Shown here: positions 3,901-39,469 of the stretch, in pieces
Numbering within the stretch: the stretch's first letter is position 1
Layout: each line of letters opens with the position of its first letter
DNA from: a virus
DNA length: 64,000 bases
Virus record (IMG/VR): IMGVR_UViG_3300045988_151219
Span: 64,001 to 128,000 of that record
Reading direction: 5' to 3' (one strand)
The notes under the pieces: generated by a model
Seen by the model: the letters and a program-made list of their open reading frames with translations, nothing else
What the model was told of the DNA's origin: nothing
Databases searched by the model: none
Position numbers and translations under genes: made by a program

Positions 3901-5150
3901 GCTTTAGAAACGTTGAAGTACATGAACCCAATGATTGATGAAGGCATTAAATCAAACAATCCTGCTATATGTTCATAGCAAGATAATTCATATAGCTTCC
4001 TAACCATTAAAAAGTTAGCACATGAAGTTTTGCCTGTATTATGTGATATAAACGGACCTACAGAATAGTTATGACAAGCTGCTATATTTAAATCTCGGCA
4101 ATATGATTTCTGTGTATATATTGATTTCACTTTGTCTACATAAATATCATATTTCTTTATTAAATAAGCAGTTGTTGTATTTACTCCAAAATCTTCTATT
4201 ATATGCTTATGTGCAAGCTCTCTAACTTGATATTCTACAGTCTGATTAAATTTCTCGTCCTGTAATATCTTCTTATGAAATAAAACTATATTATATCCAT
4301 CTGTTTCTACAGTTAAAGTTTGATTTTCTATCTTTGAGTTTATGCCAAATAAATCCAGCAAAGACTGTATGTCTCTTAAATAAGTCCTTGATTTTGAATA
4401 AACTTTATACTCTACTATAAGATTTTTGAGAACATAAGCTATTCCATTTCTATTTAATAGATAAATAGAAGGAGCTACGGTCTGATGTGATTTAGAGTAT
4501 AAAACTAAGCTGTCTAAAGTATCCTTTGTCATTTCCATCTTTCCAAAAGGACGCTCTGCTCGATGACAGATTAAATAATCAGACGGTTTTATACTTCCTA
4601 ATGTCCGCCATACTATATTAAATTTTCTGTCAAATATTCTAAACCTATGTTCCGGCGTTCCCTCAATTATTCTTCCTGATTCAAAAACAATTCGTTTAGT
4701 TTGTGCTACTCCACGGTCTTTTACTAAATTGATATCTTTAAATCCACCTTCAGTATAAACTTGAAGTCTTGGTAAAGTTACTTTTACTTTATCCGATAAC
4801 TTAACAGACGGCAGCTCTGCTATCTGTTTCAAAGTGAGTAACCCTAAAGAGGTCGGTATCTTAGTGTCTTCATGTAAGCACCCTAAACCACCTGATAAAA
4901 TGACTTCATTATATTTACCTCTGTTTGTTTCAAAAATATCAATTAATAAATTCTTCCAGTACGGATAAATGTAGGAACCCTCCACACCTACATAATATTC
5001 ATCATTCACCCACTGGGAAGCTGGAACCATAGGATACCGTAATTTTGGTTTTGAGAATAAATCCTTGCATTTAATCGCTTGTCTTAATATTGAGATAAGC
5101 TCGCTGGAATCTTTCTCATCCATTCCCTCGACTATGCTGTGGTCTGTCAT
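933..5150 (-). CDS. terL: Terminase large subunit interrupted by three inteins
   Basis: 1405-aa ORF. After conceptual removal of three inteins the exteins (about 653 aa) give Walker A ILSGGLG/TGKTS, Walker B IIGTILDEANF, and nuclease-type acidic blocks HIDMSTTNDSTG and VDHPSDG/SKDVCDGIVGAVYNA. A portal-like gene follows. Confidence 0.85.
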   Translation of the reverse strand: MTDHSIVEGMDEKDSSELISILRQAIKCKDLFSKPKLRYPMVPASQWVNDEYYVGVEGSYIYPYWKNLLIDIFETNRGKYNEVILSGGLGCLHEDTKIPTSLGLLTLKQIAELPSVKLSDKVKVTLPRLQVYTEGGFKDINLVKDRGVAQTKRIVFESGRIIEGTPEHRFRIFDRKFNIVWRTLGSIKPSDYLICHRAERPFGKMEMTKDTLDSLVLYSKSHQTVAPSIYLLNRNGIAYVLKNLIVEYKVYSKSRTYLRDIQSLLDLFGINSKIENQTLTVETDGYNIVLFHKKILQDEKFNQTVEYQVRELAHKHIIEDFGVNTTTAYLIKKYDIYVDKVKSIYTQKSYCRDLNIAACHNYSVGPFISHNTGKTSCANFLMVRKLYELSCYEHIAGLFDLMPSSIIGFMYFNVSKAQAELTGYGQFKGMIDQIPYFRDRFQRNERLDSILQFPDNVMFMYGSSSVHCLDPNSMIMTSKGIVRAKQLTDKYFVYNGSEFKKVRYTYKATGEMYKVYTDTGRELITKDNHLHYTHRGFVETQHLEYGDLLFTGVNGYENTTTKSFKSIHKIENFNPKLLTLLGMIIGTGEIVYKNNIVIIDRFLTKNIDYIKEILPENTKIQDRAIAYSQITIQDLKLVNLLKKLEISEERKDRVIPDSIVNLKLEEQFYFFYGLFLSSGKLDKRTFSFTFSSSSLGQDLHNLLSCLGFQTTYHEKNLSKYLIYIVFLKNMSNERFCKLLPAEDRELRGAFLCKTKDSQPRGMKDSLQIESVVKIEYLGEQECYGASVEGELYTCNSLITHNSIGMNIIGTILDEANFFQKDAQSTQKSTMNYSKVADMYSSVVNRSASRFMSKGHDSSLSILVSSNTSTSSFTDKRIRESLLQGKDSKTKVVNARLWEVKPKGTYSDKCFYVFKGSNLIDPVIIKEVNDIRQYLESVNKTLTVKTDNIEEAIKSLDAYDKEQFIAIPEDFRKSFEINVTRSLQDIAGISVAPMGKLFNSRTTYLDSCTDNIIHPFYKDEISVATGDSIQVWDFLRKGYRPRNIDKPRYMHIDMSTTNDSTGIGMCYIDHWESTPSGVQLPYIIIDMKLKIKPPHAPRKISIQKIIDFIFYMREKWRIEYGYISQDQFQSSYSLQAFAEAGIPSGLESVDRTADAYLYYIQCMYEGRIKGYRYAPEEKELFDLLYFPDAGQNHGGKVDHPSDGCLLGNTLIKTPKGNVPMYALMNKKATLYSSTETGAIVESQMKKCWISKFIDSLYKITFSDGSVVKGTDNHLFRLSNLKYIRADKLSAGMSMLTDNPEPIIVTDIEKISFNGVKMPVYDIEMEKTDNFQLYNSIIVHNSKDVCDGIVGAVYNAFKHGSSASPGITQSSVGGMLDFYKDMNVDEDEGFTMQELLDIPNISAIKGD
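1134..1544 (-). mobile_element. Intein 3 of terL (137-aa mini-intein) in the nuclease domain
   Basis: Starts CLLGNTLIKTPKG (TGC 1544-1542) and ends NSIIVHN (AAC 1136-1134) followed by Ser. Too short to carry an endonuclease domain. Flanks are VDHPSDG / SKDVCDG. Confidence 0.75.
2748..3749 (-). mobile_element. Intein 2 of terL (334 aa) with LAGLIDADG-type homing endonuclease
   Basis: Starts CLDPNSMIMTSKG (TGC 3749-3747) and ends NSLITHN (AAT 2750-2748) followed by Ser. Internal LLTLLGMIIGTGEI and FYFFYGLFLSSGKLD look like the two LAGLIDADG helices. The flanks join just upstream of Walker B. Confidence 0.8.
4038..4880 (-). mobile_element. Intein 1 of terL (281 aa), inserted in the Walker A P-loop
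   Basis: Begins with Cys (TGC 4880-4878; CLHEDTKIPT). Ends ...GPFISHN (AAT 4040-4038) followed by Thr. The flanks join to GGLG-TGKTS. Codons checked by hand. Confidence 0.8.
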
Positions 5151-5321: not shown

Positions 5322-5921
5322 TTATACGTTGTTTTCGTCCGAATCTTCGGCAGTTATTGAGTCCACAGCGTTTGCGACAGGCTCTTTATTGATAACTTCC
5401 GACAAAACTTTGATAGCTTCCTCCGCTTTATCGTTAGGTAGTGCCATAATGCGGGACATCAGCTGCTCCTGCATAGAACCATTGGATGAAGAATTAATCT
5501 GATGGTTCTGAATAACAAACTTCCGCATTGTCTCCGCCATGTCTGTCAGATTCTTGTTTACCTGTTTATATATTTCCAGCTTGGTTTTGTCCGGATACAG
5601 GTCGAACTTATTCATGTCCAGCAAAGATTCTTCCATCTGTTCAAGTTTCTTTGCTAAAGAAATCTGTCTGCGTAAAGAATTAATAACTGTAAGCCCTAAA
5701 CCCATTGAAACTTTGTTACTGATGTTAGTAGTAGCTTTCTGAACATCATGCGGAGCTTCCGGTGAGTTACCGAAAGCGAACGCAATGAAGTTCCGTAAAT
5801 CTGTTTCAGACAACCCTGTATTGCTAAGGTCGATGTCTGAAATAATGTCATTAGTATCTTCTACTAAATCTACAGCTGATTCCACATTGTCCAAATCATA
5901 ATCAGAAGAAACTGTTTTCAT
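5322..5921 (-). CDS. Hypothetical protein; small-terminase candidate by position only
   Basis: 199-aa ORF immediately upstream of terL. Acidic N-terminus and predicted helical middle. No recognisable motif. Confidence 0.5.
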   Translation of the reverse strand: MKTVSSDYDLDNVESAVDLVEDTNDIISDIDLSNTGLSETDLRNFIAFAFGNSPEAPHDVQKATTNISNKVSMGLGLTVINSLRRQISLAKKLEQMEESLLDMNKFDLYPDKTKLEIYKQVNKNLTDMAETMRKFVIQNHQINSSSNGSMQEQLMSRIMALPNDKAEEAIKVLSEVINKEPVANAVDSITAEDSDENNV

Positions 5922-8900
5922 GTACTAACTTTCCTTTCCTTGACCACTTAATATAACGAACTCCGAAGCCTTGACTTCTTCTAAGCTTTATCAAGTACGG
6001 GTCGACCTTAGGTCTGTCTTTTGTCTTGATTGTTATAGGACTTGACACTGCCTGATAACGCTTGTCTGAAAGTTTCATTGCTCCGTCAACTATTATATTA
6101 TACTTGTTTTCGTCAGTGGCGTTTCTAAATTCAACCTGGAAAGTTTCTCCTTCTCTAATATCAGCTGTGCTTGGGAATGTTACTATCTCTACCGGAGGCT
6201 CTGCTGATGTAGAAACTTTTACTAATGTTTCTGCCTCATTATTGATAGTAACATAAGGTCTCGGCTCTACTTCTATTGTAACATCAGCATCGATTAATTT
6301 AAATTCCTTGCCTTCCTTAAGTATTCCTACTAAAGGCTCTTTTATTTTATATCCTGGCTTAGGAATAATTTTTATCTTGCTACCTACAAATAATGAAGTA
6401 TCCCCATCATGAATTACAGCATTTTCTACTGTCTTGACTTTCACATGTGTTTCGTCCGGAATATGTATAGTAGCAGGAATTTTCTTATGCTCACAATCAA
6501 CCGTTACTACAGGACCTGAAACTTTGTAAGAATATCCGTCAGGAATAGAAGCTTGAAGTTCAGCCCCAGTTACTTTCATATCATATTTATCCTTAAGTGA
6601 AGTGACCCTAAAGAATACTTTAAAGATTTCTTCATTATGGAGCAAGTGTGATGGGAAAGTAGTTACTTCATTGTCCTGTACTAATATCTTAAGTAATGAA
6701 TCTTTGTTATTGTATAAGATAACTGTAGGCTCTTCTTCTACATCTACTTCTACTTCTTTAGCTACTATAGTAAATTTGTTCGGGTCAGATGTCGCCTTAA
6801 GTCCTTTTAATAATGTAGGATTTATTTTAAAGAATTTCTTCGGCACTATCTTTATAACATCGGTAGTAGATATAGATGTATCACCATCATGGATTTCTCT
6901 ACCATCTGATTCAGCTGTTACAGTTACATTAGCTGCATGTTTAATCTTAATATGAGACGATACTACTTTCATAACAGCAGATATATTTACATCAGTAGTT
7001 CCTACACGATATCTATGTTCAGAAGGTGTAGCAGTTGCTCCGGTAACATTAATATCATATAAAGGTTTATAAAGGTCTTCATCTCTATATTCAATGACTA
7101 TTTCCTGGGTCTGATGAATTTTATCCGAACACGGGAACGTATCAATATTGTTACGTACACTATTCCAATAATAAGATACTGAAATAATATCCGGATTATC
7201 GTTATTAATTGTAACAAACGGAACAGGCTCTATTTCTATAGTGACATTCTCATCCGTGATTTCATAAAGATACCCCAGTTTTTGAACAGCACCTACTACA
7301 GATTTTACTCTATATTCATAAGAATATGGAGGTCTTTGAATCTTAAGCTTATCACCTATTGCTAATGAGTAGTCATTATCATAGATTGGCTCATTACTCA
7401 TATTAGTGACGTTAGTGTGTTCTTTATCCAAAATATGAATCTTTGCTTTATGATTTGCTTTAATAATAATAGGACTGCTCAATGCTGTATACATCATTTC
7501 AGATTTATGATTAGCAGCTATAACCGATAGTTTATAATCATTCAAATAACTCGGATTTATCCACTCTATAAGGAAATCTTGATTATCATGAATGGTATCA
7601 GAATTTGGATATGTCGTTAATGTTACTATAGGTGGGTCTACTGTTTTTACAGCTACAATATCAGGATTCTCATTATCTATCATAACGCAATGAGCTTCCT
7701 CTACATTAATAACTACTGATGTAGCATCTTCCCTAACTATATACGTTACTTTTGTACTGGAGTAAGTATGATATACTTCGATACTATCAGAAAAAGTTAT
7801 ATTGATATATTTTTTAAATGCTGGGAGTTCAACAGTAAATTTATCGCCTCTCCTAAGAACTGTACCATTTACTAAATCAGAGCCGTCTCTAATGTTAGTA
7901 ATCTTTACTTTTGTAGTATTAGATTCTAATTTTAAAACTATTTGAGGGTCATACCGTAAATCAATTTTAAAATTAGTTGAATCATCGCTGGGGATTGTAA
8001 ATCCACGTTCATTTTTTGCTGTTATAATATAATCATTTTTATATTCATCTTTTAACTCAACCTTAAAAGGCTCACCTGCATGGAAAATATTAGACGGTAG
8101 TGTTGATGTTGTAGGACCATATATTGAAGTTACGCCTTTTATTTTATCCCTGTCTGCAGGTTCTCGCATATCTAAATTTAATGTGAGTTTTTCCGGCATA
8201 TCGGGTATAGTAACCGTGTCAATTGGAACGTTTTTAATCTGGCATACAAAGTAATGTTGACCATCTAATTCATCATATTTCCAGGGACCCGACTCATTCA
8301 TTGTTGTATTATCAGGGATTTTTAAATAATACCTGGCGTCTGTCATGATAACGCGGAATTTATCTCCGGTTTTCATAACAGTATCGTTGGGAATTACTTC
8401 TTCACTATCGATTTTAATAACTTTACATTTAGTAGTATTAGGAATTTTTAGAGTTACATTTTTGCCTTTAAATTTTATATCGATATAGACTCTACCAATA
8501 CGTGTAGCTTTATAGATATGATTTTCAGCATCTTCTAACTCAAACCCTTTATCTGCATCAGACATATCTACATAGAATCCATCTTTAAAAGTGAGTTGAA
8601 ATCTATCACCTTTGCAAAGCATCGTATAGATAGTTCCTACAGGAATTTCTTTATTATATCTTAAATGAGTACAATGAATATCTGCTTGAGTCTCAAAATC
8701 AGAAGAAACAATAAATCTCTGTAATCTTTCTACTTCTTTGTCAATTAACGTAATTTCCTGGACGTTGGCTCTAAACGTACATTCTTCGGATGAATCATCT
8801 TCCGGCGGATTAACCCACATTATGTAACTATTATCATCCAAAGCCTCAACGTCAGCCCCCGCAAAATAATTTAAGTCTTTAGGCTTTACTTTAATTACAT

Positions 8901-9252
8901 CATTTACATAAAGCTCTGTAGTGTCTGTAATCTTTGTACCGTCAACTTTATATAAATCTACATTAGCGTTGTTTGTAATCTTTAAATATGGAAGCTGTTT
9001 ACTTTTATCTTTATAGCCCAAAATAAAATTCGTTTCATCTTTAACTTTTATTTTTGTGTTAAATCCACTTGTGGAAATTACTTCTGCACAACCTCCATAA
9101 ATATGTGGAACTTTATCAGCATCCATAGTTAAAATATCAAGTATATCCCCAATAGAGACTAAAGACGCTTCGGTTACAGGCTGTCCAGTTGTTTCATTAG
9201 TAATATTAAATAATGACCCTTTTTGAAATATTCGTTTTATCTTAGTTGCCAT
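5902..9252 (-). CDS. Large beta-rich repeat protein (tandem two-domain units); probably virion-associated (inference from position)
   Basis: 1116-aa ORF. One recurring block: IHDGDTSLFVGSKIKIIPKPGYKI / IHDGDTSISTTDVIKIVPKKFFKI / IYDNDYSLAIGDKLKIQRPPYSY / LVNGTVLRRGDKFTVELPAFKKY. It alternates with P(Y/F)VTINN(E/D)... / CVMIDNENPDIVAV / PTVILYNNKDSL. Confidence 0.7.
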   Translation of the reverse strand: MATKIKRIFQKGSLFNITNETTGQPVTEASLVSIGDILDILTMDADKVPHIYGGCAEVISTSGFNTKIKVKDETNFILGYKDKSKQLPYLKITNNANVDLYKVDGTKITDTTELYVNDVIKVKPKDLNYFAGADVEALDDNSYIMWVNPPEDDSSEECTFRANVQEITLIDKEVERLQRFIVSSDFETQADIHCTHLRYNKEIPVGTIYTMLCKGDRFQLTFKDGFYVDMSDADKGFELEDAENHIYKATRIGRVYIDIKFKGKNVTLKIPNTTKCKVIKIDSEEVIPNDTVMKTGDKFRVIMTDARYYLKIPDNTTMNESGPWKYDELDGQHYFVCQIKNVPIDTVTIPDMPEKLTLNLDMREPADRDKIKGVTSIYGPTTSTLPSNIFHAGEPFKVELKDEYKNDYIITAKNERGFTIPSDDSTNFKIDLRYDPQIVLKLESNTTKVKITNIRDGSDLVNGTVLRRGDKFTVELPAFKKYINITFSDSIEVYHTYSSTKVTYIVREDATSVVINVEEAHCVMIDNENPDIVAVKTVDPPIVTLTTYPNSDTIHDNQDFLIEWINPSYLNDYKLSVIAANHKSEMMYTALSSPIIIKANHKAKIHILDKEHTNVTNMSNEPIYDNDYSLAIGDKLKIQRPPYSYEYRVKSVVGAVQKLGYLYEITDENVTIEIEPVPFVTINNDNPDIISVSYYWNSVRNNIDTFPCSDKIHQTQEIVIEYRDEDLYKPLYDINVTGATATPSEHRYRVGTTDVNISAVMKVVSSHIKIKHAANVTVTAESDGREIHDGDTSISTTDVIKIVPKKFFKINPTLLKGLKATSDPNKFTIVAKEVEVDVEEEPTVILYNNKDSLLKILVQDNEVTTFPSHLLHNEEIFKVFFRVTSLKDKYDMKVTGAELQASIPDGYSYKVSGPVVTVDCEHKKIPATIHIPDETHVKVKTVENAVIHDGDTSLFVGSKIKIIPKPGYKIKEPLVGILKEGKEFKLIDADVTIEVEPRPYVTINNEAETLVKVSTSAEPPVEIVTFPSTADIREGETFQVEFRNATDENKYNIIVDGAMKLSDKRYQAVSSPITIKTKDRPKVDPYLIKLRRSQGFGVRYIKWSRKGKLVHENSFF

Positions 9253-11754: not shown

Positions 11755-13917
11755 CTACCTCAAAGATTTTGTTAATATCTGAAACACACATAATAACCCT
11801 GTCTGCAACTCTAAGTCAGATTTAAAAGAATCTTCTAAAATCCACGGAGCTAACAAGAACTTTATTATCTTAAGAGTATTAGCTCCAAATAAGCTGTTAA
11901 TCTTCTTAGACTGCTCCGCATAAGGCGGATAATTAACCATGGCTTTTGTCATGTCGGCTAAAACTTCCTGGAAGTCCTGCTGCACAGTTACTAAGGGAAA
12001 TTTTAATATACTGTCTATTGCTTTAAAACAGGTCTCTTTATCTTTCTTTGCAATCGATTCAAGAAATAGATAAATATAAGGATGTGCTGTCCGTACAGAT
12101 TGTACAAAAGCATCATGACCTATTAAGAAGTATTTGTCTAAAAGCATGTGTGCATTTCTCATATGCCCTCTTGAACGTTTGCAAATCACATCTATTACAT
12201 TATCAGGTACTTCTTTGTTTAGCTCTTTAGAAATATTCTTTAAATTCTTGAACATTTCTTCTTTTGATATACCATCAAATTTAAGCTCTATAGAACGTGA
12301 CCTTATTGTCTTGAGTAATTTCTCCGGATTAGTTGTAGCAAATATAAAGAAAACTTTTTTAGGAGCTTCTTCTATAATCTTAAGTAAAGCTGCTTGCCCC
12401 ACACTCGAAATCAGTTGGGCCTCGTCCAGCACTACTACTTTATAGAATGAACCTGAGGAATAGGCAAACGTATCTCTTAGTTCTCTAATATGGTCTACAG
12501 AACCCATAGCCGCTGAATCAAGTTCCATATAATACGGCGTTGTATCTAAGTCTACTGTATTATCGTGATTTATTTCTCTGGCAAAAATTCTCGCACAAGT
12601 TGTATTGTGATTATATGTACCTTGGGCGTAAAATTCATGACACTTCTCTGTTGTTATGTCATAAACATCTTCTACTGTGTCAGTGTATGATAAAATCTTA
12701 GCATATGTATACCCTATTAATTCATCAAAACATGACGGCAAATACCCTAATTCATTCTTAAGATTAATAAGAGTCCTTTCTGTAACACATCTACCCGCTC
12801 GTAAATTATGTAAAACAGCACGTACTCTACTCGTTTTTCTTCCTTTTACATAATGTTCTAATTCTTCCGTCATTCTTCTTGTAACTGAAATAACATTTCT
12901 GGAATTAGCTGTATTTTTATCTTCTAAAATAAACTGTCTACTTGTCCATTTAAAGTCCTGTAAAGAATGATTTTTTATATATATTTTATAATAAACATTT
13001 CCTTTATATCGTCCGGTAGTTAGTGTCTTAGGTATTATCTTTGTAGCTACCCCTAAAGACATGAAAATCTCCTGGTACCCCTTTACCAGCTTTTCAGACT
13101 TGCTCATTAATTCAAACTGATTCTTTGAAATGCACCCATCAGTATCAAATAAGCCCTGAATGAATGCTTTCCTCGTCTCTACGTCTGTATTAAAAACCCA
13201 TTCCGGAACATACTTATTTCCTGCTCCGTGCATGATTTCTATACTCATCTTGTCTTTTAAAGAAGACCTTATATTATAAACGTCTTCTTTTCTCTTATCT
13301 TTAGACAGCTTCCCGCTCCAGCCTACAATTCTTTTAAATTTCTTGCAAGCTTTGAGTGAACCACAATACCCTGCTGCTGTTCTGTCTCTGCTGCACCACC
13401 CATCAGAAAGCCACACGGCTTGTGCATAAGCTAAATCAGGACAGTGTTTAGCATTCTTAAACTCTATAGGTTTCTTAGGAAATAAAATATAATCTCCTAT
13501 TTTTAAATTGCCTAATGGAAATAATCCAATTTCCCCATCTTTAAAAGCTAAGACTTTGTGTCTTAGTGTTCCCCTTACATTATTATTTACATTTAAATTT
13601 ACTGTACGGACTAAAGCTTCTCTTTCAAAATATTTTGCTACTATCTTGTCTTTACCAAACCTGCCCTCTGTCTCTCCTTTACAGTCTGTAAATCCCTCGT
13701 CTATCCCTTTACAGTAATCTCCTATTTTTACATATCCATTCTCTGTTAAAATGCGTATATCTCCTGGAACGCATTTTCCACAACCATATTCTCCATAAAG
13801 TATAAGAGACCTCGGAGCTTCTTCCGGTTTAGCTACCAGTGATTTTAATATTTTTACATTTAAATCCTGCCCTACTACTTCATCAAAAGTTGTCGGTCTG
13901 AATTGCTGCGTAATCAA
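11755..13917 (-). CDS. AAA+ clamp-loader subunit (DNA pol III gamma/tau-like) interrupted by an intein
   Basis: FRPTTFDEVVGQD... Walker A GEYGCGK/TT is split by the intein. Also VVVLDEAQ (Walker B), FIFATTNPEKLLKTIRSRS (sensor 1 / SRC-like). TTG start with a GGGGGAG RBS. Confidence 0.8.
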   Translation of the reverse strand: MITQQFRPTTFDEVVGQDLNVKILKSLVAKPEEAPRSLILYGEYGCGKCVPGDIRILTENGYVKIGDYCKGIDEGFTDCKGETEGRFGKDKIVAKYFEREALVRTVNLNVNNNVRGTLRHKVLAFKDGEIGLFPLGNLKIGDYILFPKKPIEFKNAKHCPDLAYAQAVWLSDGWCSRDRTAAGYCGSLKACKKFKRIVGWSGKLSKDKRKEDVYNIRSSLKDKMSIEIMHGAGNKYVPEWVFNTDVETRKAFIQGLFDTDGCISKNQFELMSKSEKLVKGYQEIFMSLGVATKIIPKTLTTGRYKGNVYYKIYIKNHSLQDFKWTSRQFILEDKNTANSRNVISVTRRMTEELEHYVKGRKTSRVRAVLHNLRAGRCVTERTLINLKNELGYLPSCFDELIGYTYAKILSYTDTVEDVYDITTEKCHEFYAQGTYNHNTTCARIFAREINHDNTVDLDTTPYYMELDSAAMGSVDHIRELRDTFAYSSGSFYKVVVLDEAQLISSVGQAALLKIIEEAPKKVFFIFATTNPEKLLKTIRSRSIELKFDGISKEEMFKNLKNISKELNKEVPDNVIDVICKRSRGHMRNAHMLLDKYFLIGHDAFVQSVRTAHPYIYLFLESIAKKDKETCFKAIDSILKFPLVTVQQDFQEVLADMTKAMVNYPPYAEQSKKINSLFGANTLKIIKFLLAPWILEDSFKSDLELQTGLLCVFQILTKSLR
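12604..13773 (-). mobile_element. Intein (390 aa) with LAGLIDADG endonuclease in the clamp-loader P-loop
   Basis: Starts CVPGDIRILTENG (TGC 13773-13771) and ends QGTYNHN (AAT 12606-12604) followed by Thr. LAYAQAVWLSDGW and KAFIQGLFDTDGC are LAGLIDADG-like. Codons checked by hand. Confidence 0.8.
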
Positions 13918-15008: not shown

Positions 15009-15017
15009 ATATTATAC
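15009..15017 (-). promoter_or_regulatory. GTATAATAT element, site 1
   Basis: Minus strand reads gaagaaaacaGTATAATATaagagat. Overlaps the stop of the radical SAM gene, 31 nt upstream of ATG 14978. Confidence 0.4.
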
Positions 15018-18000
15018 TGTTTTCTTCGACAAATTGTACAGTAATAATCGTCCTGTACATGTAGGACACATCTTATTATAATCGTGCTTAAACAAAGAAA
15101 AAGTTAAAGAGTTTCCACACTTGCAGTTTGCATCTACTTTCATTGTCTGGTCTACCATCTGAAAAATACAGTCCTGTAAGCATTGACGGTATGACCTCTT
15201 CGTGATTGTGGACATTACTAAATATGGTGAAATATAAGCCGGCAGTGACATATAAACTAAAGCTCCCGCTTTGTACGGTATAGCTAATATCTTGTCTCTT
15301 AATTCCGGCATATACTTTGTTGTAAATGTCATCAGTGTATTAAGACTCTTTCCAGCTACTTTTATATTCCAGTCTGTATTTGCCATTTTGTTTTTAAAGA
15401 AGTCTACAGAATAATCGTTTATCACTCCTAAGTATGTTATCTCGTTTTCTCTTGACTGCTTTAAAGCATCCGCATCATCATAAACAGCTGTAACTTGACA
15501 CGACTCTAATTTACTGTTTACTTCTTCTAAATGTTGTAATAAATCCTGTGCTGATACTTTTTCTTTGAAAGATACATCAAAAAGCCAGCTGCCTGTATAC
15601 CAACCTCTCTGGTCGTTAGCAGATAATAATTGACAAGAGTTTCCTTCTACAGCAAAATACTTATACGCCAATCCAGGAACAGTTTTAAAAAATTGAGATG
15701 TAACGTAATACTGTAAAGCATCTCTATTATAAAAGAACCATTTAGGATTCTGCTTTACAATAAATCTAAGTATTGTAGCTTTTCTTCCTTCAGAAAAAGA
15801 ATTAATGACATCATCGTAATTGCTTTCATCATATATCTTTCTGGTAGTCATATATTTTATATGCTTGGCGTCACACGTCTGGCATCCTAAACATGTAGCA
15901 TCCTCATTGGCTAAAGTCTTTAGACACAGATTAGCCGAAAAGTCCATTTTCTGTGTCCTTTCCCACCACATCTTTTTTACTCTGTCAGTGACCGCCTGCA
16001 TATAATCATTGGGAAATATCCAGTCTTTAGGACGTGCATTACAAAAAAAGAACATATCTTCTATTCCATGTTCTTTTAAGACTTTTACTACTATTTCCTG
16101 GCAGTTTCTTCGAAACCTACTGTAATAAACTGCTCCTTGTTCAGACATCTTTACTAAACAATCAGTTCCTGCCGGACCAAAATCTATTAGCAACTGCTCT
16201 ATCCAGGTTCCCCCAAAGATTGAATGTATCCTTACTCTTACTTTTCTTTTCTTCATCTCTTCTATCAGATAAAGAAATTGATTGCCAGGATAAAATGACA
16301 TTCTTGCAGTCTTTCTATCAAGATATCTAAGTGCTATATTTGTATAATAAAGCAACGGAGTTATATTCATCTGTAGGGATGTTTTAGCTCCGATTTTATC
16401 CCTGATAGCGAACATCTCGTCTACTTCTGAAATGCATTCATCTATGTCTTCTTTAGTTTCATATCCGGTTTGGATATACCCCATTTTTAAGTGCATGATT
16501 TTTAAGCGGTAGATATTTCTTGCCGCCTGCATTATAGTTTCTCTTGATAGATTTTTATTTAAGAATTGATTTCTTAGTCTGTTGGAAAATCCCTCAATAG
16601 GTGCAGATACTCTGGATAATCCTAATTTCTTTGCAATTAACAGCTGCTCCGGTGCATGTGCTATCACGTCTAACCGTTCATTTATCAAAGAAATTTTAGA
16701 AAAGTATTCCGCCCCTTTCTTTATCATGTCCATAAACCTATAGTAGTAGTTTAGATTATAACTATAAAAAGTTACTTTATTAGCAGCAGAAGTCTTTCTT
16801 GCATACTCTAAATTCTTCTCTACATTATCTAAAGTACGTTCATGATAGTTTCCGGCTATAGTTGCTTCGTGACAATTGTGAGTATAAAGCATGTTGTAGC
16901 ATGTCCGATGGTTAGGCAAGGTCTCTGTAGTATATGTTACTTCTTCTCTTCCTAATTTCTTCACAGACATAACATATACAGGAAAATAATCCCCGCTCGC
17001 TAAAGCTTTAAAGATTCTCGGTAAAGAACTATAAGAATATTTCTTTAATGTCTCTATAGAAATATTATTTCCTTGATATGATACAAAAGCTTTGTTATCT
17101 TTATATAAACATAAGTGAATATATTCTCCTGTGATTTCTACAAATTTTCCTACCATACGATATAACAGTTGAATATCTGATTTAAACTTATATTCTGTTA
17201 TCTTAGTTAAATCGTTTTCTACATACTCTAAATATTTCTCTATGCTCTCTTTAGCATAATAGAATACATGGTCAGAAACTCTTTTGTTTTTAAAGTCTTC
17301 TTCGTATCTCTCTTTTAGCTCTTTTTCAGACGGAATATACTTGCCATAAGATTCTAAACCCATCTTGATATAAAAGACATCTCTTATATTGATGTCTTTT
17401 GCTAAGACTTCTTCTTCTCTTCCTTCAGATAAAATCATCCTCATCATGCGATGGTTTTCTGAACAGGTGAATTTAGAACCATCTGATAAAGTAATTTCCA
17501 TTAAAGGCTGCTTTGAAGCCTGTTTTACTGTTGTATATTGCTTTTCGTCTTCTCTTAAAAATCTTGTAGTAGGCACAGCCCCCACGTCTAAAAGAGACTC
17601 TATATTCTCAAGCCCTCTTCCTGTCGGTATCTTAGTTCCTGCCGGTACTGAAAAAGAACATAATGTAGAAGCCCCTGAACAGCCTGAGGATACCTGCACA
17701 TCTATAGATGAACAGTTTGACCCCGCTAAGTGAAAAGTCTTTAAAGGAAAGCCTTCCCATTCATCAAGCTCAAGTTTATTTACTTGCACTCTTTCCGGAA
17801 GTCTTTCGTCTAAAGGCTTAATTGATTTTATTGTATAGTTGTCTTCCGCATAATCCCATTTATATTTATTGGGATAAAAAATATAGTGGTTTAAAATATT
17901 CCTCGATATTAAATACTCCATGAACCCATTAGTATCATGCAGATTTTTACCCTCTTTTACTTTATAGTTGTATGCACTTTCAATCAGTGTAGGTAAAATA

Positions 18001-18593
18001 ACTTCTCCATACCCATGAATAGTCATGTCTACTAAAGATGAGCCTAAGTCTTTCCCCTCTTCATCGTAAACATGTCCATAAAGTATCGGGGCTTCCGTTG
18101 CAGAAGCTCCCCCCATTATAAAAGGCGGAATCCTTAAATCTTTTGCTCTTCCCTCTACCGTGTAAGGTATGCCTGATTTCTTGAGTATTATCGGAATATG
18201 AAACATTTCCGGAATTAAAGCCATTGATACTAATACTAAGTCATAGTCTTTTACCGGATGGTGGGAACAGTTACCAAAAAGATAAGGAATGTGGTTTTCT
18301 TCATAAACCTTTTCATTCCCCTCTTCGATAAAGTAACAGTTGTCTACAAAGATATCTTCGCCATGCTTTTCATGACATAGCCAATTCAAGCAGCTAAAGG
18401 AGTTAGATACTGTCTTGTGTGACCCTGGCAGTAATAACACTACAAGTATTTTTAGTTTTGATTTATCCCATTTCTGTATAGAATCTTGGTTATTGTCTAC
18501 CGCATACAGATATTCAGGATAATTCATCTTCTTCATATTATTATCAAGAAATCTCTCTATCTCTTCATGAGTGACTTCTATTAAATCATTCAT
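15012..18593 (-). CDS. Giant radical SAM protein (B12-domain/TIGR03960-like with fused DUF2344-like C-terminal region), interrupted by an intein
   Basis: ATG 18593 with a GGAG RBS. Cys motif GCSGASTLCSF / CHEATIAGNYHER is split by the intein. Downstream blocks ISLINERLDV, SAPIEGFSNRLRNQFLNKN and KMGYIQTGYETKEDIDE match, from memory, the SLPSLR / APEAG..RLR / YFM.GLP.E..ED blocks of that family. C-terminal Cys clusters CLGCQTC and CKCG...CPTC. Confidence 0.6.
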   Translation of the reverse strand: MNDLIEVTHEEIERFLDNNMKKMNYPEYLYAVDNNQDSIQKWDKSKLKILVVLLLPGSHKTVSNSFSCLNWLCHEKHGEDIFVDNCYFIEEGNEKVYEENHIPYLFGNCSHHPVKDYDLVLVSMALIPEMFHIPIILKKSGIPYTVEGRAKDLRIPPFIMGGASATEAPILYGHVYDEEGKDLGSSLVDMTIHGYGEVILPTLIESAYNYKVKEGKNLHDTNGFMEYLISRNILNHYIFYPNKYKWDYAEDNYTIKSIKPLDERLPERVQVNKLELDEWEGFPLKTFHLAGSNCSSIDVQVSSGCSGASTLCSFSVPAGTKIPTGRGLENIESLLDVGAVPTTRFLREDEKQYTTVKQASKQPLMEITLSDGSKFTCSENHRMMRMILSEGREEEVLAKDINIRDVFYIKMGLESYGKYIPSEKELKERYEEDFKNKRVSDHVFYYAKESIEKYLEYVENDLTKITEYKFKSDIQLLYRMVGKFVEITGEYIHLCLYKDNKAFVSYQGNNISIETLKKYSYSSLPRIFKALASGDYFPVYVMSVKKLGREEVTYTTETLPNHRTCYNMLYTHNCHEATIAGNYHERTLDNVEKNLEYARKTSAANKVTFYSYNLNYYYRFMDMIKKGAEYFSKISLINERLDVIAHAPEQLLIAKKLGLSRVSAPIEGFSNRLRNQFLNKNLSRETIMQAARNIYRLKIMHLKMGYIQTGYETKEDIDECISEVDEMFAIRDKIGAKTSLQMNITPLLYYTNIALRYLDRKTARMSFYPGNQFLYLIEEMKKRKVRVRIHSIFGGTWIEQLLIDFGPAGTDCLVKMSEQGAVYYSRFRRNCQEIVVKVLKEHGIEDMFFFCNARPKDWIFPNDYMQAVTDRVKKMWWERTQKMDFSANLCLKTLANEDATCLGCQTCDAKHIKYMTTRKIYDESNYDDVINSFSEGRKATILRFIVKQNPKWFFYNRDALQYYVTSQFFKTVPGLAYKYFAVEGNSCQLLSANDQRGWYTGSWLFDVSFKEKVSAQDLLQHLEEVNSKLESCQVTAVYDDADALKQSRENEITYLGVINDYSVDFFKNKMANTDWNIKVAGKSLNTLMTFTTKYMPELRDKILAIPYKAGALVYMSLPAYISPYLVMSTITKRSYRQCLQDCIFQMVDQTMKVDANCKCGNSLTFSLFKHDYNKMCPTCTGRLLLYNLSKKTV
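16875..17651 (-). mobile_element. Intein (259 aa, Ser1 type) inside the radical SAM cysteine motif
   Basis: Starts SVPAGTKIPTGRG (TCA 17651-17649) and ends YNMLYTHN (AAT 16877-16875), followed by Cys, which would be the third cluster Cys. Codons checked by hand. Confidence 0.7.
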
Positions 18594-18605
18594 CACTTTC
18601 TCCTA

Positions 18606-23788: not shown

Positions 23789-24787
23789 TTATGTTTTTAT
23801 CTCTCCTTTCTCCAGTTCAACAATATGTTTCCCTATATCATATACTACGTTTACTGTTACAGCATTTCCTGCTTGTTTATATAATTGTTCAGTGCTATTA
23901 CATAATAAAGCTTTATGAAACTGCTCGTCAGTAAACCCTTGTAGCCCCCAGCACTCCTTTGGAGTAAGCTTTCTTATATAACACTTAACTCCATTAGATA
24001 ATAAAACTCCGCTTATCTCACCTTTATGGTTGCTTGTTCCTTTATTGCAACCAGTCGTAAGACATCTTGCATATTCAGTTAGTTTTACTTCTTTCTCTGA
24101 AAGGTCTATGAATTGACAGTATAAACCTGTTTTTGCTCCTATACCTCCACCTTGCGATGTTATAGTACAAGCCAAATCTAAATTATATACTCTATCTCCT
24201 TGAGAACCATTTATAATTTCTTTAAGAGTTCTCTCACTTTTTCTTGTGACAGGAAGTAGCGACTGTCCTTTGTGTTCTCCATTATATCCCGCAATGTACA
24301 CTCGCTCACGGCTTTGCGGAACTCCGTAGGCTTTTGAGTTGTAAACACGCCATTCAAGACTGTACCCTCTCGCAGCCATTTCAGACAAGACCTGGAAGAA
24401 TCCCCAGCCATCATCAATTGAAAGCAAGTTCTTAACGTTTTCAGCGATAAGCCATTTGGGTCTATTTCCGCCTGCTTCGTCAAGAAGCCGCATAATCTCA
24501 TAAAATAAGCCACTTCTGGTTCCTCGTTTGATACCTGCTTGTTTCCCTGCAATGGATACATCTTGGCATGGAAACCCGAAGGTCCATATGTCGGCTTTTG
24601 GTATTTTGTCGCCTCTAACTTTTTGGACATCATTTGCAAACCATAATCCCTCCGTGTTATATAAAGCTCTATAACTTCTTTGAGCATATTTATTAAATTC
24701 ACACCAGCCAATACATTTCATTCCCGCCTTCTCAAACCCTGAATGAAATCCACCTATGCCAGCGAAAAAGTCAATAAAAGTTAGCAT
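23789..24787 (-). CDS. dcm: C5-cytosine DNA methyltransferase
   Basis: FAGIGGF (motif I), GFPCQDVSIAGK (motif IV), ENVKNL (motif VI), QSRERVYI (motif VIII), GNAVTVNV (motif X). Confidence 0.9.
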   Translation of the reverse strand: MLTFIDFFAGIGGFHSGFEKAGMKCIGWCEFNKYAQRSYRALYNTEGLWFANDVQKVRGDKIPKADIWTFGFPCQDVSIAGKQAGIKRGTRSGLFYEIMRLLDEAGGNRPKWLIAENVKNLLSIDDGWGFFQVLSEMAARGYSLEWRVYNSKAYGVPQSRERVYIAGYNGEHKGQSLLPVTRKSERTLKEIINGSQGDRVYNLDLACTITSQGGGIGAKTGLYCQFIDLSEKEVKLTEYARCLTTGCNKGTSNHKGEISGVLLSNGVKCYIRKLTPKECWGLQGFTDEQFHKALLCNSTEQLYKQAGNAVTVNVVYDIGKHIVELEKGEIKT

Positions 24788-30158: not shown

Positions 30159-30972
30159 TAGTCTTAATCAACCAGGCTCTATCTTCTAAAGAGATACTCT
30201 CACTACGTTCTAATATCATAGGAATGTTATTCTCTAAACAATAATGAGCTATCCGTAAAAGTTGAAGTTGCAGTTTACCACTATTAATATACGTTTCTGA
30301 ATGCCTATCCAGATGTGACCCCTGCTTAACAAAATAAGGAATTGAGTTTAAGTGAACCAAAGAAGCATTGCTTAAAACCTTGTTCAAATAAGTCTTGTCT
30401 GTTAAGTCATCTCCATCAGCGTAAGCATGTTCCGTATCATATGTTATATATACGTTTTTGTAGTTTCCCTGTAACTGGAGTAAGTTCTTTACTACACCTA
30501 TCTTAGTAGACTTTTTAGACCCTGGGTCGTTCTCATAAGTAAATTTTATTTTCTTTGAGCTTTGTCTATAAAATTCCTGACTAATATAAGAAAGCTCTTT
30601 GATATTTTCCTCATAAGACAGTTCAGGATTATATGCTCCGCAATGAGATACAAGATAAATGTTTATTCCATACTTGTCTACCATAAAAGACATTTTCTTA
30701 TCTATATCTAAACAGTATTTTAAGATAAAAGCTTTATGAGTTTCTTTAATAAGAGTAAAAATAAAAGGTAAATGTATTACTATATTCACATTATCACTTG
30801 AACTTTTATTCTTTACAAGATATTTACTCATTTCTAAGAATCGCTGATATCTCGGAACTTCCCATTGTGTAGGTGAAGATAAAAACATTTGAAACGTTCT
30901 TACTCCTTGAGTAAAAGCTTCTTTAAAGAAATCTACATTATCAACATGTACTCCGATTAAGTCGTACTGCAT
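30130..30972 (-). CDS. Endonuclease IV-like AP endonuclease (TIM-barrel, xylose-isomerase-like fold)
   Basis: IHLPF, VSHCGAY, YENDPGSKKSTKIG, TYDTEHAYADGDD and VHLNS...GSHLDRH parallel the Nfo metal-binding blocks. Confidence 0.6.
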   Translation of the reverse strand: MQYDLIGVHVDNVDFFKEAFTQGVRTFQMFLSSPTQWEVPRYQRFLEMSKYLVKNKSSSDNVNIVIHLPFIFTLIKETHKAFILKYCLDIDKKMSFMVDKYGINIYLVSHCGAYNPELSYEENIKELSYISQEFYRQSSKKIKFTYENDPGSKKSTKIGVVKNLLQLQGNYKNVYITYDTEHAYADGDDLTDKTYLNKVLSNASLVHLNSIPYFVKQGSHLDRHSETYINSGKLQLQLLRIAHYCLENNIPMILERSESISLEDRAWLIKTIEDKFYAAK

Positions 30973-39249: not shown

Positions 39250-39336
39250 TGGTGCGAAAGGTGGGACTTGAACCCACACGGTATTTCTACCAGGAGATTT
39301 TAAGTCTCCAGCGTATTCCGATTCCGCCACTCTCGC
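39250..39336 (-). tRNA. tRNA-Leu (anticodon UAA), CCA encoded
   Basis: Minus strand reads GCGAGAG...GGAGA-CUUAAAA-UCUCC...long variable arm...GUGGG-UUCAAGU-CCCAC-CUUUCGC-A-CCA. Confidence 0.9.
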
Positions 39337-39346
39337 ATATAGACAA

Positions 39347-39469
39347 GCTTTTACAGAACCAGCTATTGCTGCCTTGTATGAACAATGGGAGAAAGCAGCA
39401 ATATGAAGAAAAGTGTTTAGGGATATTTTCTTAGCTGTAAGTAAAAGTATGAGGAGCGTCTGTAAAAGC
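39347..39469 (-). ncRNA. Candidate structured RNA between tRNA-Ser and tRNA-Leu (unknown class)
   Basis: 11-bp closing helix 39347-57/39459-69. Inner helices 39360-63/39434-37, 39364-72/39395-403 and 39406-12/39426-32. All pairs are Watson-Crick, so the strand is inferred only from the flanking tRNAs. Confidence 0.4.

What the first reader, a model, noticed from the sequence alone, without database searches (positions are those of the whole stretch)
15012..18593. Giant phage radical SAM protein of an uncharacterised bacterial family, with an intein splitting the Fe-S cysteine motif
The largest enzyme-like ORF here (about 1193 aa) has a Rossmann-like N-terminal region followed by GCSGASTLCSF | 259-aa intein | CHEATIAGNYHER. 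The predicted third cluster cysteine is therefore the intein +1 residue, and the cluster site exists only after splicing.

The spacing would be Cx6Cx2C rather than the canonical Cx3Cx2C. Later blocks (ISLINERLDV, SAPIEGFSNRLRNQFLNKN, KMGYIQTGYETKEDIDE) match my recollection of the TIGR03960-type B12-domain radical SAM proteins. The long C-terminal half fits the DUF2344/TIGR03936 'radical SAM-linked' domain that is fused or adjacent in bacteria.

To my knowledge that family has no assigned function. A phage copy, sitting near a phage metK and DNA-modification genes, suggests a role in nucleic-acid or nucleotide modification. That last point is inference.
Basis: partly seen in the sequence, partly recalled or inferred. 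Interest (0 to 1): 0.7.

Follow-up and report, generated by a model that had tools for sequence, protein, structure and literature searches.

The report
Intein-split radical SAM enzyme in phage
A large uncultured phage encodes a 1193-residue enzyme of an uncharacterised radical SAM family whose iron-sulfur binding motif is cut in two by a self-splicing intein, so the catalytic site can only form after splicing; the enzyme's substrate is unknown but is most likely RNA or DNA.

Summary
ORF 15012..18593 (-) encodes 1193 aa. A 259-aa intein (16875..17651) lies between GCSGASTLCSF and CHEAT, so intein residue +1 is the third cluster cysteine.

After in-silico splicing, the 934-aa protein matches Radical_SAM above Pfam's cut-off. 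It aligns over about 600 residues with bona fide TIGR03960 proteins (hhalign 99.85%) but scores far below NCBI's membership cut-off. It belongs to a sister clade of about 930-aa proteins. In all six loci examined the gene lies in a phage replication module.

The CX6CX2C spacing is real; across the clade it ranges from CX3 to CX8.

The C-terminal domain gives no DUF2344/TIGR03936 HMM hit. Deep profile comparison (E 5e-5) and a pseudouridine-synthase-like predicted fold suggest a very remote DUF2344-type domain.

Of 160 representatives, 46 carry inteins, about 23 at this same site.

Function remains unassigned. An RNA- or DNA-modifying radical enzyme is the best inference. Inteins in radical SAM enzymes have a precedent (P. 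abyssi MoaA). I class this as a new variant of a known kind, of moderate interest.

The parts
15012..18593 (-). Whole gene: 1193-aa precursor (ATG at 18593; stop codon 15012-15014)
   Evidence: The same gene is called on three independent related contigs (P0001).
17652..18593 (-). N-extein, residues 1-314. It holds a Rossmann-like Radical_SAM_N2 domain (about residues 79-209, window 17967..18359) and the start of the radical SAM core, and ends in GCSGASTLCSF.
   Evidence: Pfam PF19864 E 1.2e-7; coordinates checked.
17652..17684 (-). First two cluster cysteines, G-C305-SGASTL-C312-SF. This is the N-terminal part of the CX6CX2C motif.
   Evidence: C305 and C312 are invariant in A1 and A2.
16875..17651 (-). 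Intein, 259 aa (residues 315-573): Ser1, block B SENH, terminal THN. No homing-endonuclease domain was detected.
   Evidence: Insertion relative to 13 intein-less homologues. Pfam Intein_splicing E 3.2e-5. Similar to inteins at the same site in P0081 and P0020.
16872..16874 (-). Cys574: intein residue +1 and the third [4Fe-4S] ligand (C315 of the spliced protein).
15867..16874 (-). C-extein part of the TIGR03960-like region (spliced residues 315-650): the rest of the radical SAM barrel plus a helical extension.
   Evidence: Pfam Radical_SAM 41 bits after splicing. TIGR03960 E 1e-22. hhalign 99.85% over residues 41-650.
15873..15926 (-). Second cysteine motif, CLKTLANEDATCLGCQTC (Cx10Cx2Cx2C). 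It is a candidate auxiliary Fe-S or zinc site.
   Evidence: All four Cys are invariant in A1 and at least 90% conserved in A2. It aligns with the CxxxxCSGCG end of bona fide TIGR03960.
15126..15839 (-). C-terminal alpha/beta domain (spliced residues about 660-897). The predicted fold is pseudouridine-synthase-like, with a remote DUF2344/TIGR03936-like signal.
   Evidence: AlphaFold2 pLDDT 84-88. Foldseek matches PUS10, TruA, PUS3 and PUS1. hhalign against DUF2344 gives E 5.1e-5, with controls at E 0.06 or worse.
15057..15125 (-). C-terminal zinc-ribbon-like CKCG...CPTC
   Evidence: The Cys are at least 90% conserved in A3 but lost in P0005, P0007 and P0009.

Best explanation
The gene encodes a precursor of a phage-borne radical SAM enzyme. 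Its [4Fe-4S]-binding motif, C-X6-C-X2-C, is interrupted before the last cysteine by a 259-aa intein.

Shown:
- The architecture is a Rossmann-like N-domain, a radical SAM barrel, a conserved 4-Cys motif, a pseudouridine-synthase-like alpha/beta domain, and a zinc ribbon.
- The first 650 residues are homologous to the bacterial TIGR03960 family.
- The protein belongs to a distinct clade of about 930 aa. In all six loci examined (five contigs plus this window) the gene lies in a phage replication/recombination module.
- The intein sits at a site that many clade members use.

Inferred:
- The intein excises itself after translation (Ser1 or Cys+1 chemistry, then Asn573 cyclisation). This joins F314 to C574 and creates CSGASTLCSFC.
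- Only then can the cluster assemble, bind SAM and generate a 5'-deoxyadenosyl radical.
- The C-terminal domain, a very divergent counterpart of the TIGR03936/DUF2344 partner protein, holds the substrate.
- The substrate is most likely a nucleic acid. RNA (rRNA or tRNA) is the first guess and phage DNA the second.
- The second Cys motif carries an auxiliary cluster or zinc.
- The chemistry is unknown. Methylation is plausible if the N-domain binds cobalamin.
For: ORF and intein boundaries. Intein motifs, the Pfam hit, and homologous inteins at the same site.

Radical SAM assignment: PF04055 rises from 28 bits (precursor) to 41 bits (spliced), against a cut-off of 29.5.

TIGR03960 relationship: E 1e-22 over profile positions 57-586 of 605; 44 of 48 clade members hit it best; hhalign 99.85%, E 1.5e-30, against three annotated members.

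Conserved Cys: C305, C312, C315 and C631, C642, C645, C648.

Structure: the model has pLDDT 87.7 and pTM 0.89. Its top structural matches are B12-radical SAM methylases (MgmA, TsrM, OxsB, Mmp10) and MiaB/MtaB/RimO.

C-domain: Foldseek matches PUS10, TruA, PUS3, PUS1 and Cbf5. Pfam places DUF2344 in the pseudouridine-synthase clan (PMC7955657). Deep hhalign against DUF2344 gives E 5.1e-5 over 187-219 collinear columns, while ten shuffles and one reversal give E 0.06 or worse.

Phage context: conserved order clamp - (small ORFs) - rSAM - Toprim - clamp loader in the window and in L001-L005.

RNA link for the cellular relatives: TIGR03960-TIGR03936 pairs lie next to rng/rne, rplU, rpmA, obgE or rplS, ylqF, rnhB in 4 of 5 loci.

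Other genes in the window: three tRNAs and a MetK-like gene.
Against: - No experiment shows splicing, cluster binding or activity.
- The intein's Pfam score is below the gathering threshold. Its closest relatives have Asn or Asp at position 1, so the canonical Ser1 mechanism is not certain.
- The protein fails the NCBIfam TIGR03960 cut-off (80 against 462 bits). No member hits DUF2344 or TIGR03936 HMMs.
- The pseudouridine-synthase fold match is modest (TM about 0.40), and no catalytic Asp is conserved.
- The position inside a replication module argues as much for a DNA-related role as for an RNA one.
- Bacterial fused relatives of the P0017 type have no informative neighbours.
- Cobalamin binding cannot be judged from sequence.
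Confidence: 0.6

Rival explanations
1. The enzyme modifies phage DNA, or a replication intermediate or nucleotide pool, rather than RNA. On this view it is a new DNA-hypermodification or replication-linked radical enzyme that protects the genome from host restriction.
For: The gene always sits between the sliding clamp/SbcCD and the Toprim primase-like gene and clamp loader. The phage also carries two DNA methyltransferases and a MetK-like SAM synthetase.
Against: The synteny may simply reflect shared ancestry of one phage lineage. The cellular relatives sit next to RNase E/G and ribosomal genes. The C-domain resembles RNA-binding pseudouridine synthases. No known DNA-modification family was hit.
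Confidence: 0.25
2. The substrate is a protein, peptide or small molecule. The C-terminal alpha/beta domain would then be a protein-binding or regulatory module, not a nucleic-acid binder. Examples would be modification of a ribosomal or replisome protein, as RimO and MgmA modify proteins.
For: The best structural match is MgmA, a protein glutamine C-methylase. RimO, a ribosomal protein S12 methylthiotransferase, is also among the matches. NCBIfam gives weak hits to P-methyltransferases and RiPP enzymes. Ribosomal protein genes lie next to the bacterial relatives.
Against: These matches reflect the shared Rossmann-plus-barrel scaffold at 10-13% identity. No RiPP precursor or peptide-recognition domain was seen. 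The C-domain's best matches are all RNA enzymes.
Confidence: 0.12
3. The gene product is inactive. The insertion would be a decaying, non-splicing intein remnant, and the precursor cannot assemble its cluster.
For: No homing endonuclease domain was detected, and the intein HMM score is sub-threshold. Related inteins have non-nucleophilic residue 1.
Against: The ORF is intact over 3.6 kb in this window and in three other contigs at 98% identity. Substitutions are equally sparse in intein (7 of 259) and extein (19 of 934). Ser1, SENH, THN and Cys+1 are all present. The exteins keep every invariant residue of the family.
Confidence: 0.05

Closest known systems
TIGR03960 family B12-binding radical SAM protein with its partner TIGR03936/DUF2344 'radical SAM-associated protein' (bacterial, function unknown)
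   Same: The Rossmann-like N-domain, radical SAM core, helical extension and terminal Cys-rich CxxCG motif are collinear (hhalign 99.85%). A roughly 230-280-aa alpha/beta domain follows immediately. In bacteria it is a translationally coupled separate gene; here it is fused. Remote profile similarity to DUF2344 is seen (E 5e-5).
   Different: - About 21% identity; 80 bits against the 462-bit cut-off.
- CX6CX2C here (CX3-8 across the clade) instead of the invariant GCxRGCRFC.
- Cx10Cx2Cx2C instead of Cx3-4Cx2C at the domain end.
- The C-domain is not recognised by DUF2344 or TIGR03936 HMMs.
- An extra zinc ribbon is present.
- The gene lies in a phage replication module instead of next to rng/rne-rplU-rpmA-obgE.
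- Inteins are frequent in this clade.
Bacterial fused proteins of about 840 aa of the P0017 type (Omnitrophota, Oligoflexia, Planctomycetota and others; labelled 'YgiQ-like' by JGI)
   Same: They share Radical_SAM_N2 plus Radical_SAM plus a C-terminal extension in one polypeptide. P0017 was the only cellular-type hit in the first homology search (29% identity).
   Different: They have canonical CX3CX2C in 118 of 118 sequences. P0017 lacks the 4-Cys motif. They are chromosomal genes without conserved neighbours. Their C-terminus aligns only partly with the phage profile.
Pyrococcus abyssi MoaA intein (an intein in a radical SAM enzyme acting as a redox trap)
   Same: An intein interrupts an oxygen-labile radical SAM enzyme, with an N-extein Cys at -3. 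By inference from the CX3CX2C motif, this is the same position: before the third cluster Cys. Clade members with Cys1 inteins (CSF|C...) have the same C(-3)xxC(1) arrangement.
   Different: The window intein has Ser1, so the Cys-3/Cys1 disulfide trap cannot form. The host protein is unrelated to MoaA beyond the superfamily. The setting is a phage, not an archaeon.
Class B (cobalamin-dependent) radical SAM methylases (MgmA, TsrM, Mmp10, OxsB) and MiaB/RimO/MtaB methylthiotransferases
   Same: These are the best structural matches for the N-domain plus barrel (E 1e-10 to 1e-7). Like MiaB, the protein has a three-module layout: Rossmann-like domain, radical SAM barrel, then a putative substrate-binding domain.
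   Different: Identity is only 10-13%. The N-domain has no conserved Cys, so there is no MiaB-type auxiliary cluster there. There is no TRAM domain. Cobalamin binding is untested.
Pseudouridine synthases (TruA, PUS1/3, PUS10, Cbf5)
   Same: The predicted fold of the C-terminal domain matches them (probability 0.99-1.0, TM about 0.40).
   Different: Identity is 6-10%, and no conserved catalytic Asp is present. The domain is most likely a binding module, not a synthase.

Membership tests
Radical SAM superfamily (PF04055) | Pfam model score above the gathering threshold | tested here: met
   41.0 bits against 29.5 for the spliced protein. The precursor scores 28.0, just below threshold.
Radical SAM superfamily (PF04055) | Three-cysteine cluster motif (canonical CX3CX2C) with an aromatic residue before the last Cys | tested here: met
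   The motif is present as the variant CX6CX2C (C305, C312, F314, C315). All are invariant in 14 and in 48 sequences. Spacing across the clade is 3-8.
Radical SAM superfamily (PF04055) | Partial TIM-barrel fold like solved radical SAM enzymes | tested here: met
   Foldseek probability 1.0 to MgmA, TsrM, MiaB, AprD4, LipA and others.
Radical SAM superfamily (PF04055) | [4Fe-4S] binding and reductive SAM cleavage | not testable with these tools
   Needs anaerobic biochemistry.
TIGR03960 (NCBIfam) | Score at or above the curated cut-off (462.3 bits) | tested here: not met
   80.4 bits, E 1e-22. The best of 48 clade members reaches E 2e-61. Bona fide members score 720-935 bits.
TIGR03960 (NCBIfam) | Full-length collinear homology to family members | tested here: met
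   hhalign 99.85%, E 1.5e-30, residues 41-650 against 34-613.
TIGR03960 (NCBIfam) | Canonical GCxRGCRFCQAG cluster motif | tested here: not met
   GCSGASTLCSFCHEA here, with a three-residue longer first loop.
TIGR03960 (NCBIfam) | Neighbourhood next to TIGR03936 and RNase E/G and ribosomal genes | tested here: not met
   Here the neighbours are a sliding clamp, SbcCD, a Toprim gene and a clamp loader. Bacterial loci.
TIGR03936 / DUF2344 (PF10105) | HMM hit in the C-terminal domain | tested here: not met
   No hit in the window protein or in 48 diverse members, in Pfam or NCBIfam.
TIGR03936 / DUF2344 (PF10105) | Profile-profile homology | tested here: inconclusive
   Thin profiles give E 0.53. 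Deep profiles give probability 67%, E 5.1e-5, over 187-219 collinear columns. Shuffled and reversed controls give E 0.06-0.95.
TIGR03936 / DUF2344 (PF10105) | Same fold as DUF2344 (pseudouridine-synthase clan) | tested here: inconclusive
   The C-domain model matches PUS10 and TruA, and Pfam places DUF2344 in that clan. No DUF2344 structure was available for direct comparison.
Intein (class 1) | In-frame insertion absent from close homologues, at a conserved site | tested here: met
   259 aa lie between F314 and C of CSFC; the insert is absent from P0003-P0015.
Intein (class 1) | Nucleophile at position 1, block B T/SxxH, terminal His-Asn, and nucleophile at +1 | tested here: met
   Ser315, S378-E-N-H381, H572-N573, Cys574.
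Intein (class 1) | Pfam Intein_splicing above the gathering score | tested here: not met
   24.2 bits against 35.8, E 3.2e-5. TIGR01445 gives E 0.11.
Intein (class 1) | Homing endonuclease domain | tested here: not met
   None detected in the 259 aa. P0016's intein at the same site has a LAGLIDADG domain.
Intein (class 1) | Protein splicing activity | not testable with these tools
   Needs expression and mass spectrometry.
Cobalamin-dependent (class B) radical SAM methylases | N-terminal Rossmann-type cobalamin-binding domain | tested here: inconclusive
   The fold and the GG...GYGE motifs resemble this domain, and the top Foldseek hits are class B enzymes. Cobalamin binding cannot be read from sequence.
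MiaB/RimO methylthiotransferases | Three conserved Cys in the N-domain (auxiliary cluster) and a C-terminal TRAM domain | tested here: not met
   No invariant Cys in residues 1-300. No TRAM hit.
Pseudouridine synthases | Conserved catalytic Asp | tested here: not met
   No invariant or near-invariant Asp in the C-domain of A1 or A3.

The most novel reading that the evidence does not exclude
The inteins at this Fe-S site, including the window's lineage, may not use the classical position-1 nucleophile. Residue 1 is Ser, Asn or Asp in the window's lineage and Lys, Met, Ala or Ser in a second lineage. Residue +1 is always Cys, and both lineages keep a Cys 8-9 residues before the C-terminus.

On this reading they splice through the +1 cysteine (class-2-like) or through an internal cysteine. 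The future iron-sulfur ligand would then itself be the splicing nucleophile, and splicing would be coupled to redox state or cluster assembly.

The mature enzyme would be a previously unknown phage nucleic-acid-modifying radical enzyme acting alongside the replisome. It could give the first functional handle on the widespread TIGR03960/TIGR03936 system.
Probability: 0.15. Interest if true: 0.75.

Novelty: new variant of a known kind. Interest (0 to 1): 0.5.

Why it matters
TIGR03960/TIGR03936 is a widespread bacterial radical SAM pair with no assigned function. No paper in the searched library addresses it.

This work shows a large sister clade: 468 cluster representatives at E<=1e-30. In every locus examined it was phage-borne. 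In it the two proteins are fused, the cluster loop is expanded, and inteins have invaded repeatedly at catalytic motifs.

Three things follow.
1. It adds a pseudouridine-synthase-like substrate domain and an RNase E/G and ribosomal gene context to the evidence that the system acts on RNA.
2. It offers compact single-polypeptide versions for biochemistry.
3. It provides a natural collection of inteins placed in an Fe-S ligand motif, some with non-canonical first residues. These are useful for studying conditional, redox-linked splicing and for intein engineering.

For phage biology, it flags an unrecognised conserved gene in the replication module of a lineage that has no close cultured relatives.

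Tried and rejected
- PHROGs gave no hit for the protein.
- tblastn against 50,697 GenBank phage records gave no match at all.
- An IMG/VR pattern scan found no relative.
- A GTDB genome scan found only one MAG contig, which is itself phage-like.
- A profile search of PDB sequences gave only insignificant MiaB/RimO-type hits around the Cys motif.
- BFVD held no full-length structural equivalent.
- Known functional subfamilies (QueE, NrdG, HemN, MoaA, viperin, MiaB) were considered and rejected. None scored better than the weak generic B12-rSAM hits.
- A MiaB-like N-terminal auxiliary cluster was rejected because the N-domain has no conserved Cys.
- A catalytic pseudouridine synthase was rejected because no conserved Asp is present.
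- The alternative intein boundary, starting at the Cys of CSF, was rejected. The ligated product would lack the CxFC that all intein-less homologues have.
- A class 3 intein with a Cys at block F position 4 was considered. The lineage-conserved Cys lies much nearer the C-terminus, so this does not fit.
- Neighbourhoods of three bacterial P0017-type genes gave no functional clue.
- The first hhalign against three DUF2344 sequences was negative. Only deep profiles gave a signal.

Full report
**Observation**

The ORF list shows a single long frame at 15012..18596 on the minus strand, 1194 aa from a GTG. The ATG one codon later (18593) follows an AGGAG motif. It is also the start used by gene callers on related contigs, giving 1193 aa.

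The protein reads ...SSGCSGASTLCSF-SVPAGTKIPT...CYNMLYTHN-CHEATIAGNYHER... The stretch from S315 to N573 is exactly 259 aa, window 16875..17651.

Thirteen homologues of about 930 aa (35-46% identity) lack this stretch and read GCSGxxxxCSFC[ML]EA without interruption. The 259 aa are therefore an insertion placed precisely between the Phe and the last Cys of the cluster motif.

The insert carries the residues expected of a splicing-competent intein: Ser1, a block-B S-E-N-H, penultimate His, terminal Asn and Cys+1. It gives a weak Pfam Intein_splicing hit (E 3.2e-5, 24 bits, below the 35.8-bit gathering score), and no endonuclease domain was detected.

A 98%-identical copy with the same intein occurs on three other contigs from different samples. 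Substitutions are equally sparse in intein (7 of 259) and exteins (19 of 934).

**Family assignment**

The unspliced protein gives only marginal hits: Radical_SAM_N2 at 31 bits, Radical_SAM at 28 bits (just below threshold), nothing in NCBIfam beyond a weak intein hit, and nothing in PHROGs.

After in-silico splicing, Radical_SAM rises to 41 bits (cut-off 29.5). TIGR03960 appears at E 1e-22 over profile positions 57-586 of 605. However, the score is 80 bits against a curated cut-off of 462.

To test the relationship directly, I fetched five bacterial loci with TIGR03960 genes. Three are annotated as such (Ruminococcus albus, Monoglobus, Collinsella). Two I verified myself at 935 and 720 bits (Acetoanaerobium, Nonomuraea).

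A profile of the phage clade aligns with the three annotated proteins at 99.85% probability, E 1.5e-30. The alignment covers residues 41-650 against 34-613, at about 21% identity, and includes the terminal Cys-rich CxGCG motif.

The protein is thus a genuine but distant relative: a sister clade, not a member by NCBI's criterion. No known functional subfamily (QueE, NrdG, HemN, MoaA, MiaB and others) scored better than weak generic B12-radical SAM hits.

**Size and nature of the clade**

The word-indexed search found only 17 relatives. An exhaustive profile search of 1.84 billion cluster representatives found 2004 at E<=1e-3 and 468 at E<=1e-30. Many of these are full length, about 900-960 aa.

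The gene's neighbourhood was examined in five related loci: L001 to L004, plus L005, a contig binned in a Halanaerobiaceae MAG. In each, as in the window, the gene lies in the same block:
- RecA, HD protein, SbcC-like and SbcD-like proteins
- a beta-clamp-like protein and small ORFs
- this gene
- a Toprim primase-like protein and a clamp loader

The window also holds two family-A DNA polymerases, a ligase, a DnaB helicase, a dUTPase, two DNA methyltransferases, a MetK-like gene and three tRNAs. All are on one strand.

The best GenBank phage match to its DNA polymerase is about 25% identical, and the radical SAM protein has no tblastn match in 50,697 phage records. This is a phage, or at least a large phage-like element, of an uncultured lineage. 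'Giant' is not shown; the longest related contig is 145 kb.

A separate bacterial group of fused proteins of about 840 aa (P0017 type) is chromosomal and has no conserved neighbours.

**Cluster motif**

C305, C312 and C315 (spliced numbering) are invariant in the 14-sequence and 48-sequence alignments.

The spacing between the first two Cys is 6 here. Across 115 clade members with an uninterrupted motif it is 3 (18 members), 4 (11), 5 (60), 6 (22), 7 (1) or 8 (3). All 118 P0017-type bacterial proteins and the three bona fide TIGR03960 proteins have CX3CX2C.

1. A second motif, C-x10-C-x2-C-x2-C (window 15873..15926), is invariant in the close alignment and at least 90% conserved in the diverse one. 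It aligns with the CxxxxCSGCG end of TIGR03960. It is a candidate auxiliary Fe-S or zinc site.

2. A terminal CxC...CxxC zinc ribbon (15057..15125) is present in most members but not all.

3. The clade is an intein hotspot.
   - Of 160 representatives, 46 carry at least one intein-sized insertion, and some carry three by the census criteria. A few proteins of 1.7-2.1 kb show four or five matched stretches.
   - Insertions occur at eight or more conserved positions.
   - About 23 insertions are at the same CxF|C site as here.
   - At that site there are at least four intein lineages.
   - The window intein is most similar to those of P0081 and P0020 (blastp E 3e-17 and 3e-9), whose first residues are Asn and Asp.
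   - A second lineage starts with Lys, Met, Ala or Ser and often ends in Gln.
   - Residue +1 is Cys in every intein inserted at this site, and both lineages keep a Cys 8-9 residues before the C-terminus.
   - This suggests that some of these inteins do not rely on a position-1 nucleophile. That is unexplained and untested.

**C-terminal domain**

No DUF2344 (PF10105) or TIGR03936 hit was found in the window protein or in 48 diverse members.

The AlphaFold2 model of the spliced protein is confident (pLDDT 87.7, pTM 0.89). Its N-terminal two thirds match B12-dependent radical SAM methylases and MiaB/MtaB/RimO.

A separate model of residues 645-934 (pLDDT 84.5) matches pseudouridine synthases best: PUS10 at E 4.8e-4, then TruA, PUS3, PUS1 and Cbf5, with TM about 0.40. 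Pfam treats DUF2344 as part of the pseudouridine-synthase domain clan (PMC7955657).

A first hhalign against three TIGR03936 proteins was negative (E 0.53). I then used deep profiles: 111 clade C-termini against 123 DUF2344 sequences. These gave 67% probability, E 5.1e-5, over 187-219 collinear columns. Ten column-shuffled controls and one reversed control gave E 0.06-0.95.

Together with the equivalent position directly after the TIGR03960-like region, this makes a very divergent DUF2344-type domain likely, but not proven. No catalytic Asp is conserved, so it is a binding module rather than a pseudouridine synthase.

**Functional inference**

Nothing was found in the searched literature on the function of TIGR03960, TIGR03936 or DUF2344.

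In four of five bacterial loci, the translationally coupled TIGR03960-TIGR03936 pair lies next to RNA-processing or ribosome genes:
- rng-rplU-rpmA-obgE in Acetoanaerobium
- rne in Nonomuraea
- rplU-rpmA-obgE in Collinsella
- rplS-ylqF-rnhB in R. albus

Combined with the pseudouridine-synthase-like domain, RNA is the best guess for the substrate of the cellular system. By extension it is the best guess for the phage enzyme, which has phage tRNAs and host rRNA and tRNA available.

The constant placement in the replication module, and the phage's own SAM synthetase and DNA methylases, keep a DNA-directed role as a serious rival. The chemistry is open: methylation if the Rossmann-like domain binds cobalamin, otherwise something else.

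**Mechanism proposed**

Translation gives a 1193-aa precursor that cannot ligate the radical SAM cluster, because its third ligand is 259 residues away and is the intein's +1 residue.

The intein then excises itself. This could proceed by Ser1 N-O shift, transesterification to Cys574 and Asn573 cyclisation, or by direct attack of Cys574. Either route joins F314 to C574.

The resulting CSGASTLCSFC loop binds [4Fe-4S] and SAM, the second Cys motif binds a further metal centre, and the C-terminal domain presents the substrate.

The anatomy and the homologies are shown. Splicing, metal binding and substrate are inferred.

**Comparison with what is known, and novelty**

Inteins typically sit in catalytic motifs. 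One in a radical SAM enzyme is already known: the P. abyssi MoaA intein forms a Cys-3/Cys1 disulfide that blocks splicing under oxidising conditions. By inference from the CX3CX2C motif, that is the same position as here.

An intein splitting the Fe-S motif is therefore not new in kind. The window intein, with Ser1, cannot form that particular trap, although Cys1 alleles in the clade can.

What is new is the following:
- a large clade, phage-borne in every locus examined, of fused TIGR03960/DUF2344-like enzymes
- its expanded cluster loop
- its fixed place in a replication module
- its exceptional intein load, with atypical first residues

I rate this as a new variant of a known kind, with interest about 0.5.

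Noticed in passing
window 11755-13917 (-): The clamp-loader (DNA_pol3_delta2/AAA) gene carries a LAGLIDADG intein inside its P-loop (GEYGCGK|C...YNHN|TT). Relatives L002-L004 have the same arrangement.
   Followed up: partly
window 933-5150, 5322-5921 and 5902-9252 (-): These are three consecutive ORFs of 1405, 199 and 1116 aa with no extein family hit. The first contains two intein-splicing hits. In relatives L003 and L004 the corresponding region is one 2685-aa gene, so here it may be split or differently interrupted. Its function is unknown.
   Followed up: no
clade members P0016, P0047, P0092, P0133, P0083, P0081, P0020 (inteins at the CxF|C site): These inteins start with Lys, Met, Ala, Asn or Asp, often end in Gln, always have Cys+1, and keep a lineage-conserved Cys 8-9 residues before the C-terminus. 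They may splice by a non-class-1 mechanism. The window intein's nearest relatives are the Asn1 and Asp1 forms.
   Followed up: partly
window 23789-24787 (-); L003 2746-4794: The C5 cytosine DNA methyltransferase is intein-free in the window (332 aa). In the 98%-related contig L003 it is 682 aa with an intein. This is an intein presence/absence polymorphism between close relatives.
   Followed up: no
window 39250-39677 (-): A cluster of three phage tRNAs: Leu(UAA), Ser(UGA) and Ile(UAU). The Ile(UAU) tRNA would read AUA directly, without the modified CAU anticodon that bacteria usually use for AUA (from general knowledge, not tested here).
   Followed up: no
window 50862-52646 and 56559-58706 (-): Two family-A DNA polymerase paralogues lie in one replication module. 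The better one is only about 25% identical to any GenBank phage polymerase, which points to a deeply divergent lineage.
   Followed up: partly
window 30957-32198 (-): A MetK-like S-adenosylmethionine synthetase (GHPDK and GDQG motifs) lies 12 kb from the radical SAM gene. It was identified by motifs only.
   Followed up: partly
L009, L011, L012, L013 (bacterial loci): Bona fide TIGR03960-TIGR03936 pairs overlap by a few bases, which suggests translational coupling. They lie next to rng/rne, rplU, rpmA, obgE or rplS, ylqF, rnhB. This suggests an RNA or ribosome role for this uncharacterised system.
   Followed up: partly
L005 (PWFW01000113.1, Halanaerobiaceae MAG): This is the only hit among 185,579 species genomes. 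It shows the same phage synteny (clamp-like, PolA, rSAM, Toprim), so it is probably a phage contig binned into the MAG, or a prophage. It is a possible hint of the host.
   Followed up: partly
P0005, P0007, P0009 (C-termini): These three clade members have lost all four Cys of the terminal zinc ribbon while keeping the rest of the protein. The ribbon is therefore dispensable in part of the clade.
   Followed up: no
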